Part shown: positions 8,114-54,223 of the stretch, piece by piece | Layout of the letters: each line of letters begins with the position of its first letter | Numbering within the stretch: position 1 is the first letter of the stretch | DNA from: Tubiluchus corallicola | Taxonomy: Eukaryota; Animalia; Priapulida | Assembly: GCA_030141605.1 (NCBI GenBank) | Contig: JAQGDQ010001183.1 | Coordinates: 1 to 57,029 of the forward strand | DNA length: 57,029 nt | Direction: 5' to 3' | Notes under the pieces: model-generated | The model's database searches: none | Seen by the model: the letters and a program-made list of their open reading frames with translations, nothing else | Told to the model about the DNA's origin: nothing | Position numbers and translations under genes: made by a program

Positions 8114-8296
8114 CAACACTGTATAAAGAGACGTCCATCGGTCGAGATCGCTTTACGTTTTCGCGAATTTGTTCTGAATTCGTGATGCCGTCCGTAGCGT
8201 CGCCGTCCGAGAGGAAGAATATAATTTTAGCGAACGACGGCTGTTCAGCTTTGACGGTGTTGATTGCCTGCCGAAGTGCCTCGTTGATATTAGTGG
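8114..8296 (-). CDS. ITIH-like exon, module 2 VWA (STNINEAL...IIFFLSDGDATDG...LYSV)
   Basis: ttttctag acceptor, G|gtacgt donor, 183 nt; MIDAS Thr and Asp present. Confidence 0.93.

Positions 8297-54223: not shown

What the first reader, a model, noticed from the sequence alone, without database searches (positions are those of the whole stretch)
8114..54223. A tandem ITIH polyprotein: at least three VIT-VWA heavy-chain modules in one reading frame
Seen: 19 exons splice with compatible phases and no stops (about 1089 codons). The frame runs from the end of one ITIH module (EKIWVHL...YNLLTPFTSLLV) directly into a new VIT, through a full VWA module, and into another VIT-VWA. I found no stop codon or signal-peptide exon between modules. 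Known: vertebrate ITIH1-6 carry one VIT-VWA unit followed, in most members, by a C-terminal propeptide released at an Asp-Pro (DPHF) site, and no such motif occurs in these linkers. Inference: several heavy chains are made as one precursor rather than from separate genes. I do not know this architecture to be characterised.
Basis: partly seen in the sequence, partly recalled or inferred. Interest (0 to 1): 0.9.

Follow-up and report, generated by a model that had tools for sequence, protein, structure and literature searches.

The report
Tandem-fused ITIH heavy-chain gene
This invertebrate locus carries parts of three copies of a secreted matrix and immunity protein unit (the ITIH heavy chain) whose exons can join in one open frame; the first two copies are likely one chain, the third likely also has its own start, and three-unit versions already exist as uncharacterised echinoderm gene models.

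Summary
The 19-exon, 1089-codon stop-free frame is real. It holds the last 57 residues of module 1, a complete module 2 and two-thirds of module 3, not three whole modules. Module 2 keeps the heavy-chain fold but has lost 3 of 5 metal-site (MIDAS) residues; module 3 keeps all 5. The module 2/3 linker exon carries a furin-type RKRR site. Intron 12 holds a credible phase-1 signal-peptide exon (30891-30849) that could start module 3 alone. The best reading is a fused 1-2 chain, with module 3 made both from the long precursor and from its own first exon. No RNA was available to test this. The architecture is not unique: nine echinoderm database models from four classes have (VIT-VWA)x3 plus the ITI C-terminal domain, and weevil-type proteins have x2. 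My paper searches found no description of them. Window module 3 groups with protostome single-module ITIHs, so the fusion is probably independent (AU test not decisive). Verdict: new variant of a known kind, moderate interest.

The parts
54092..54223 (-). exon 1 of the model: C-terminal helices of module 1 (phase 0-0)
52273..52360 (-). exon 2: last strand of module 1 plus linker (0-1), strong donor
   Evidence: module-end motif ranks 1 of 992 acceptors
50806..50832 (-). exon 3: 27-nt linker micro-exon (1-1)
   Evidence: acceptor 10.9 bits, leave-one-out donor 12.2 bits
49998..50172 (-). exon 4: module 2 VIT start
   Evidence: Pfam VIT E 4e-6
49250..49360 (-). exon 5: module 2
45250..45388 (-). 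exon 6: module 2
   Evidence: tblastn hits from 58 homologues
43461..43569 (-). exon 7: module 2
41544..41707 (-). exon 8: module 2
40584..40719 (-). exon 9: module 2 VWA start; DxSxS motif degenerate (third ligand Gly, 40641-40627)
39724..39876 (-). exon 10: module 2 VWA
35577..36259 (-). exon 11: rest of module 2 VWA (MIDAS Thr and Asp lost), beta-sandwich and helices
   Evidence: AF2 model pLDDT 85, top Foldseek hit 6fpy E 1e-14
32942..33089 (-). exon 12: degenerate end of module 2 and linker with furin-type RKRR (32996-32985); phase-1 donor; read-through stop at 32927-32925
30849..30891 (-). candidate signal-peptide first exon of module 3 (14 codons, purine at -3, phase-1 donor)
   Evidence: inferred, no RNA
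28624..28816 (-). exon 13: module 3 VIT start (1-2)
   Evidence: Pfam VIT E 6.5e-9
26622..26741 (-). exon 14: module 3
23530..23686 (-). exon 15: module 3
16278..16377 (-). exon 16: module 3
15332..15495 (-). exon 17: module 3
11258..11543 (-). exon 18: module 3 VWA with intact DxSxS (11465-11451)
   Evidence: Pfam VWA_3 E 1e-9; ITIH4 and ITIH1 structures E 4e-21 and 2e-19
8114..8296 (-). exon 19: module 3 VWA with MIDAS Thr and Asp; phase-1 donor, next exon not in the window
33104..33158 (-). direct partial copy of the 5' part of exon 17 with its acceptor, 15 nt upstream of exon 12; used after exon 11 it gives an immediate stop
360..523 (+). inverted copy of exon 17, 164 of 164 identical, in a copied block 1-1924
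55990..56073 (+). inverted copy of exon 2 with indels and a frameshift, in a copied block 55901-57029 (coordinates approximate)

Best explanation
This is an animal ITIH heavy-chain locus in which the end of one module, a complete module 2 lacking its metal site and an intact module 3 can be joined in one stop-free frame; modules 1 and 2 are likely one permanent chain, and module 3 is likely made both from the long precursor, cut free at a furin-type site, and from its own signal-peptide exon. Shown: the open frame, the shared intron positions (genomic tandem duplication, not retrocopying), the MIDAS loss in module 2, the RKRR motif and the signal-like exon. Inferred: that exon 12 splices to exon 13; that the precursor is secreted through an upstream signal peptide outside the window; that a proprotein convertase cuts after RKRR; and that the 30891-30849 exon is transcribed. 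Predicted function, from human HC1 and ITIH4 data: module 3 would be a normal Mg/Mn-dependent binder (self-association, complement or protease capture). Module 2 would be a folded scaffold or spacer, or a metal-independent binder, tethered to module 1.
For: Frame and splice sites. Module 1-2 junction: exon 2 and exon 3 donors score 6.4 and 12.2 bits leave-one-out (sites of 6 bits or more occur at 2.3 per kb, of 10 or more at 0.09 per kb); 0 signal-peptide candidates in 1877 unmasked bases. Exon 12 is coding in the model frame: 12.2 bits per 100 nt, reached by 0 of 341 stop-free intronic windows. It has no in-frame upstream Met, so it continues module 2. Its donor is phase 1 like the exon 13 acceptor, and exon 13 is the only strong phase-1 exon downstream (31.4 against at most 6.3). 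R-x-[KR]-R occurs in 0 of 68 post-module tails but in 19 of 61 pre-VIT N-termini of homologues, so exon 12's second half looks like a pre-VIT pro-segment. Signal exon: sole hit at strict settings in 42,749 unmasked bases on both strands in three phases, with 0.05-0.08 expected in intron 12 at loose settings. It gives 31 residues before VIT, against 32 in Lingula and 33 in Owenia. A public contig differs at 5 of 58 intron bases just past its donor but at no more than 1 of 279 bases of exon plus upstream (Fisher p 0.0007). Multi-module chains exist elsewhere: including an unbroken 1221-aa two-module ORF on a 4062-nt Logan contig. Precedent for read-through plus a separate downstream gene: APOBEC3 Z2-Z3 (PMC2612020, abstract). 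MIDAS function: PMC7170535 and PMC7793589 (passages).
Against: No transcript evidence either way. The start of exon 12 matches the module-end motif weakly (rank 15 of 992; score 3.0 against a family minimum of 24.6). Its donor is only moderate (5.9 bits), with a stop 5 codons past it. The strict signal-exon thresholds were set after seeing the candidate. Six ATGs lie in the 239 nt upstream of it, one starting an overlapping out-of-frame ORF. The contig covering it has depth 39 against 4-8 on single exons, so the stretch may be a low-copy repeat, and its 5 gap letters were not located. 0 of 18 echinoderm linkers have a furin site. RKRR lies 31 residues before VIT, against 10-23 in homologues. 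Module 1's N-terminal part and module 3's C-terminal third are outside the window or missing. Local duplications and a frameshifted neighbour show the region is unstable.
Confidence: 0.5

Rival explanations
1. Two genes in tandem: a two-or-more-module gene (modules 1-2) that ends in or just after exon 12, and an ordinary single-module ITIH gene (module 3) that starts at the 30891-30849 signal-peptide exon.
For: Signal exon statistics and spacing. Module 3 is canonical: 43% identical to Lingula ITIH, MIDAS intact, while module 2 is about 25% identical to anything. There is a stop at 32927-32925 and ATTAAA signals at 32308 and 32283. A CTCF-like motif (consensus recalled) and CpG observed/expected above 1 lie just upstream of the signal exon.
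Against: It leaves a phase-1 donor and an RKRR site in exon 12 as coincidences (0 of 68 tails carry the motif). The read-through codons score -7.9 bits as coding, stop codon included. Only about 1.2 kb, mostly repeats, would separate the genes.
Confidence: 0.27
2. One reading: one constitutive precursor with three or more modules, the signal-like exon being a chance feature of a low-copy repeat.
For: Open frame. The linker length of 55 residues matches echinoderm linkers of 55-105, with one of 262. The candidate exon lies in a contig of raised depth and has upstream ATGs. Echinoderm triples show that such chains persist.
Against: The candidate is in the one intron, strand and phase where a first exon is expected, and divergence from the public contig starts at its donor.
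Confidence: 0.17
3. Three separate genes or decaying duplicated fragments whose compatible phases only reflect a common ancestral exon structure.
For: Tandem copies inherit compatible phases. The region is full of partial copies. Some database multi-module models look like merged predictions (P0004, P0005: linkers of 404 and 534 aa with hydrophobic stretches).
Against: There is no signal exon and little room between modules 1 and 2. Module 2 is stop-free over 557 codons despite about 75% divergence, with in-frame codon bias in most exons and a confident fold.
Confidence: 0.06

Closest known systems
Vertebrate ITIH1-6 heavy chains (HC1, PDB 6FPY; ITIH4, PDB 9C4F)
   Same: VIT-VWA heavy-chain module. 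Exon 18 matches ITIH4 and ITIH1 by sequence. The exon 11 model matches HC1 by fold, TM 0.79 over the query. Module 3 has the five MIDAS ligands.
   Different: One module per gene in vertebrates (recalled). Here the modules are in tandem, module 2 lacks the MIDAS, and no DPHF or ITI_HC_C is seen inside the window.
Echinoderm triple-module ITIH models (Antedon XP_071961230.1, Asterias XP_033646860.1, Apostichopus XP_071817702.1; also Anneissia, Patiria x2, Acanthaster, Lytechinus, Diadema)
   Same: (VIT-VWA)x3 in one chain with linkers of similar length and no DPH between modules.
   Different: 26 of 26 aligned modules keep the full MIDAS and 0 of 18 linkers have a furin site. All 9 end in ITI_HC_C and 5 of 9 have DPH before it. 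Each module position is its own clade across classes. Window module 3 falls outside them (SH-aLRT 98-99), though the AU test does not reject grouping (p 0.19).
Two-module ITIH of the weevil Rhynchophorus (XP_076256963.1) and a 46%-identical unnamed Logan protein (P0006)
   Same: An intact module fused to a MIDAS-degenerate module in a protostome.
   Different: The dead module is C-terminal and truncated (HMM to about 440), there is no signal peptide at the N-terminus as printed, and there is no furin site in the linker.
Spiralian single-module ITIH (Lingula XP_013407760.1, Owenia CAH1784811.1)
   Same: Nearest relatives of module 3 (42-43% and 40% identity); similar signal-to-VIT spacing.
   Different: Single module.
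Artiodactyl APOBEC3 Z2/Z3 locus (PMC2612020, abstract)
   Same: Works like it: tandem genes giving both single-unit and read-through double-unit proteins.
   Different: Unrelated protein family; there it was shown by cDNA, here it is only inferred.

Membership tests
ITIH heavy-chain family | VIT domain followed by VWA in one module | tested here: met
   Pfam on exons; module HMM 216 and 395 bits for modules 2 and 3
ITIH heavy-chain family | HC1-like fold of VWA plus hybrid domain plus helices | tested here: met
   Exon 11 only (227 aa): pLDDT 85, 6fpy top hit E 1e-14; the alignment used ITIH homologues, so likeness is partly expected
ITIH heavy-chain family | Canonical MIDAS (DxSxS, T, D): module 3 | tested here: met
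   5 of 5, as in 97 of 101 other modules
ITIH heavy-chain family | Canonical MIDAS: module 2 | tested here: not met
   2 of 5 ligands kept
ITIH heavy-chain family | N-terminal signal peptide | tested here: inconclusive
   The 5' end of module 1 is outside the window; candidate exon for module 3 at 30891-30849
Bikunin/hyaluronan-linked heavy chains (ITIH1-3, 5 type) | Asp-Pro (DPHF) site and ITI_HC_C propeptide | tested here: inconclusive
   Absent from both linkers and from the window, but the gene's 3' end is not in the window
Bikunin/hyaluronan-linked heavy chains (ITIH1-3, 5 type) | Ester link to a glycosaminoglycan | not testable with these tools
   needs biochemistry
Echinoderm triple-module ITIH | Three complete modules, all with MIDAS | tested here: not met
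   Module 2 MIDAS lost; only one complete module is in the window
Echinoderm triple-module ITIH | Modules group with the echinoderm module clades | tested here: inconclusive
   Module 3 groups with protostomes at SH-aLRT 99 and 98; AU p 0.19 does not reject the echinoderm grouping; module 2 is a long branch
Read-through (conjoined) tandem genes | Both single-gene and fused transcripts exist | not testable with these tools
   No RNA holder listed; DNA signals for both routes

The most novel reading that the evidence does not exclude
Invertebrates have more than once built multivalent heavy-chain arrays by gene fusion rather than by the glycosaminoglycan cross-link that vertebrates use: an ancient, undescribed three-headed ITIH in echinoderms and, independently, this protostome gene. 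Here an active module, a metal-dead pseudo-module and a furin-released module are made from one precursor, while the last module keeps its own promoter.
Probability: 0.4. Interest if true: 0.65.

Novelty: new variant of a known kind. Interest (0 to 1): 0.45.

Why it matters
Human heavy chains act through MIDAS-dependent self-association and partner capture, and inter-alpha-inhibitor gains valence by hanging two chains on one chondroitin sulfate (PMC7170535, passages). Genetically chained modules would be a second route to the same multivalence and give a direct test of what valence and a dead MIDAS do. The most solid by-product is the echinoderm three-module family: conserved across crinoids, sea stars, sea cucumbers and sea urchins, labelled uncharacterised, and not found in my paper searches. 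The window's own gene is a less certain, probably independent case that may show a fusion in progress.

Tried and rejected
No whole genome is held, so flanking modules could not be counted. RNA: no RNA holder listed. Run X1 behaves as DNA contigs (covers introns, no listed joint matches an intron), and X2 showed no listed piece on an exon; this is no evidence either way. Homologue search with exon 11: 0 hits among 6123 candidates; with exon 18: 1 bacterial-type hit among 78. Metagenome scans: nothing for exon 11; 19 distant partial VWA hits for exon 18, not followed. ESM Atlas for exon 11 gave only generic VWA_3 clusters. The first signal-peptide scan was swamped by ATG microsatellites and was redone with repeats masked. 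The first motif scan was off by one column and was redone. A single-sequence fold of the weevil protein failed (pLDDT 32). Knot idea: VIT-VWA modules are predicted to form 6_3 or 3_1 knots (bioRxiv 10.1101/2023.06.16.545156, passages and section 7), so tandem modules might form composite knots. Against this, the HC1 crystal structure is listed as an unknotted example (PMC11184937, passages), and of the human ITIHs only ITIH6 appeared in the passages found, as potentially knotted (PMC10108431). No coordinates were available to test it, so it is a weak lead only. P0003, P0004, P0005, P0022 and P0049 were set aside as probable merged or partial predictions and are not counted as support. Earlier findings: none returned. 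Paper searches for a described multi-module ITIH (titles and abstract starts seen) found none; subscription journals are mostly not covered, and bioRxiv supplements (Tables S1 and S3 of the knot preprint) could not be seen.

Full report
Observation. The window is eukaryotic, about 37% GC, rich in tandem repeats, with no genome held. A module HMM of 570 columns, built from 16 single-module homologues, finds three matches: residues 1-57 (columns 517-570), 94-650 (2-561) and 706-1089 (2-385). So the window shows one tail, one whole module and two-thirds of a module. No further ITIH exon was found upstream of 54223 or downstream of 8114, apart from copies of exons 2 and 17. Modules 2 and 3 share introns at columns 48, 85/86, 170/172, 223 and 320 in the same phases; one intron differs by six codons; modules 1 and 2 share the intron at column 557. 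This is genomic tandem duplication.

State of the modules. Module 3 has all five MIDAS ligands, like 97 of 101 other aligned modules; module 2 keeps two. Module 2 is only about 21% identical to module 3 and about 25% to its best homologue, yet it is stop-free. Its 227-residue exon 11 folds with pLDDT 85 and matches human HC1 best (E 1e-14). In HC1 and ITIH4 the MIDAS is needed for dimerisation, C3 binding and protease complexes (PMC7170535, PMC7793589; passages), so module 2 is inferred to be a folded pseudo-module.

Junction 1-2. Exon 2 carries the family's module-end motif (rank 1 of 992 acceptors) and a strong donor. A 27-nt micro-exon with the best donor in the gene follows, then the VIT exon. 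No phase-1 signal-peptide candidate lies in the 1877 unmasked bases between. My signal filter passes 18 of 21 real homologue signal peptides, so a split or atypical one could be missed. I put this fusion at about 0.85.

Junction 2-3. Exon 12 is coding in frame (0 of 341 null windows score as high), is the best continuation of exon 11 (46.7 against 15.2) and has no upstream Met. Its match to the module-end motif is weak (rank 15 of 992). It carries RKRR, a motif seen in 0 of 68 post-module tails and 19 of 61 pre-VIT N-termini, and ends in a phase-1 donor of 5.9 bits, with a stop five codons beyond. However, intron 12 also holds a 14-codon hydrophobic exon with a purine at -3 and an 8-bit phase-1 donor (30891-30849). 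It was the only hit at strict, post-hoc thresholds in 42,749 unmasked bases; at loose thresholds 4-6 other hits imply 0.05-0.08 expected in this intron. It gives a signal-to-VIT distance like Lingula and Owenia. One public contig is near-identical over the exon and 236 nt upstream but differs at 5 of 58 bases just inside the intron. Against it: upstream ATGs and raised contig depth, which may mean a low-copy repeat. I put the 12-13 splice at about 0.65-0.7 and the signal exon at about 0.75; both together is the single most likely state. No RNA could be tested.

Related proteins. A full-library search with exon 18 (150 best of 3852 hits) returned 8 proteins with two or more module matches among the 79 of 500 aa or longer. 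The top hit is an Antedon model of 2170 aa: signal peptide, furin site, (VIT-VWA)x3, DPH, ITI_HC_C. Searching with it gave 10 hits, 9 of them (query included) echinoderm triples from crinoids, asteroids, a holothurian and echinoids. In trees each module position is a clade across classes, so the triplication is ancient and not an annotation accident. No fragment spanning an echinoderm junction was among the cluster members. A Rhynchophorus model and a 1221-aa ORF on a 4062-nt Logan contig have two modules, the second MIDAS-degenerate. Five other multi-match proteins look like merged or partial predictions and were set aside.

Origin. Window module 3 groups with protostome single-module ITIHs, nearest Lingula (43%), at SH-aLRT 99 (45 of 103 rows) and 98 (33 of 103 rows). 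An AU test does not reject placing it with the echinoderm modules (p 0.19). A tree holding modules 2 and 3 together is 6 log-likelihood units better than the free quick tree. An independent, lineage-local duplication is the likelier reading but is not proven.

Literature. Searches (listings only) showed no paper describing multi-module ITIH. Papers seen: PMC7170535, PMC7793589, PMC11184937, PMC11187310 and PMC10108431 (passages); bioRxiv 10.1101/2023.06.16.545156 (passages and section 7); PMC2612020 (abstract). The single-module layout of vertebrate ITIH genes and the furin and CTCF consensus motifs are recalled, not from calls.

Verdict. The frame is real and multi-module ITIH is a real architecture. 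It is already present, unnamed, in public gene models, and in this window the link to module 3 is open. New variant of a known kind; interest 0.45.

Noticed in passing
P0002, P0154-P0161 (database proteins): A conserved echinoderm ITIH with three intact VIT-VWA modules and ITI_HC_C, in four classes, all labelled uncharacterised; two paralogues in Patiria. Arguably the stronger finding.
   Followed up: partly
window 4747-3313 (-): Intronless BTB-BACK reading frame with a frameshift near 4150 (Pfam BTB E 1e-22, BACK E 5e-6); a pseudogene or sequence error, lying where the next ITIH intron would be.
   Followed up: partly
window 1-1924 (+) versus 15868-13895: Inverted copy of exon 17 and flanks; exon 164 of 164 identical, flanking intron about 98%. 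It runs off the left end, so an inverted paralogue may lie beyond.
   Followed up: partly
window 55901-57029 (+) versus 52450-51288: Inverted copy of exon 2 with indels and a frameshift.
   Followed up: partly
window 33780-33104 (-): Direct copy of the intron 16 end and the first 55 nt of exon 17, inserted 15 nt before exon 12; its acceptor would stop translation right after module 2's helices.
   Followed up: partly
window 31071 (-), also 35375 and 40339: CTCF-like 13-mer (consensus recalled) 180 nt upstream of the candidate signal exon; the other two lie in a repeated element.
   Followed up: no
window 45250 and 23530: The phase-0 intron after VIT sits six codons apart in modules 2 and 3; module 2 has an extra intron in its VWA exon and lacks the one at column 385.
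   Followed up: no
window 5220-5716, 51471-52039, 56279-56846: Three copies of a decayed element whose translation resembles a LINE reverse-transcriptase tail (label recalled, not tested).
   Followed up: no
window 35576-35563 and 32941-32920 (-): The introns after exons 11 and 12 both begin GTATTT and share an 8-mer within 22 nt; unexplained.
   Followed up: no
window-wide: 56 tandem-repeat rows, with a 62-bp unit at 1168-1924 and 13411-14688 and a 172-bp unit whose monomers recur at 26.2, 35.2 and 40.2 kb.
   Followed up: no
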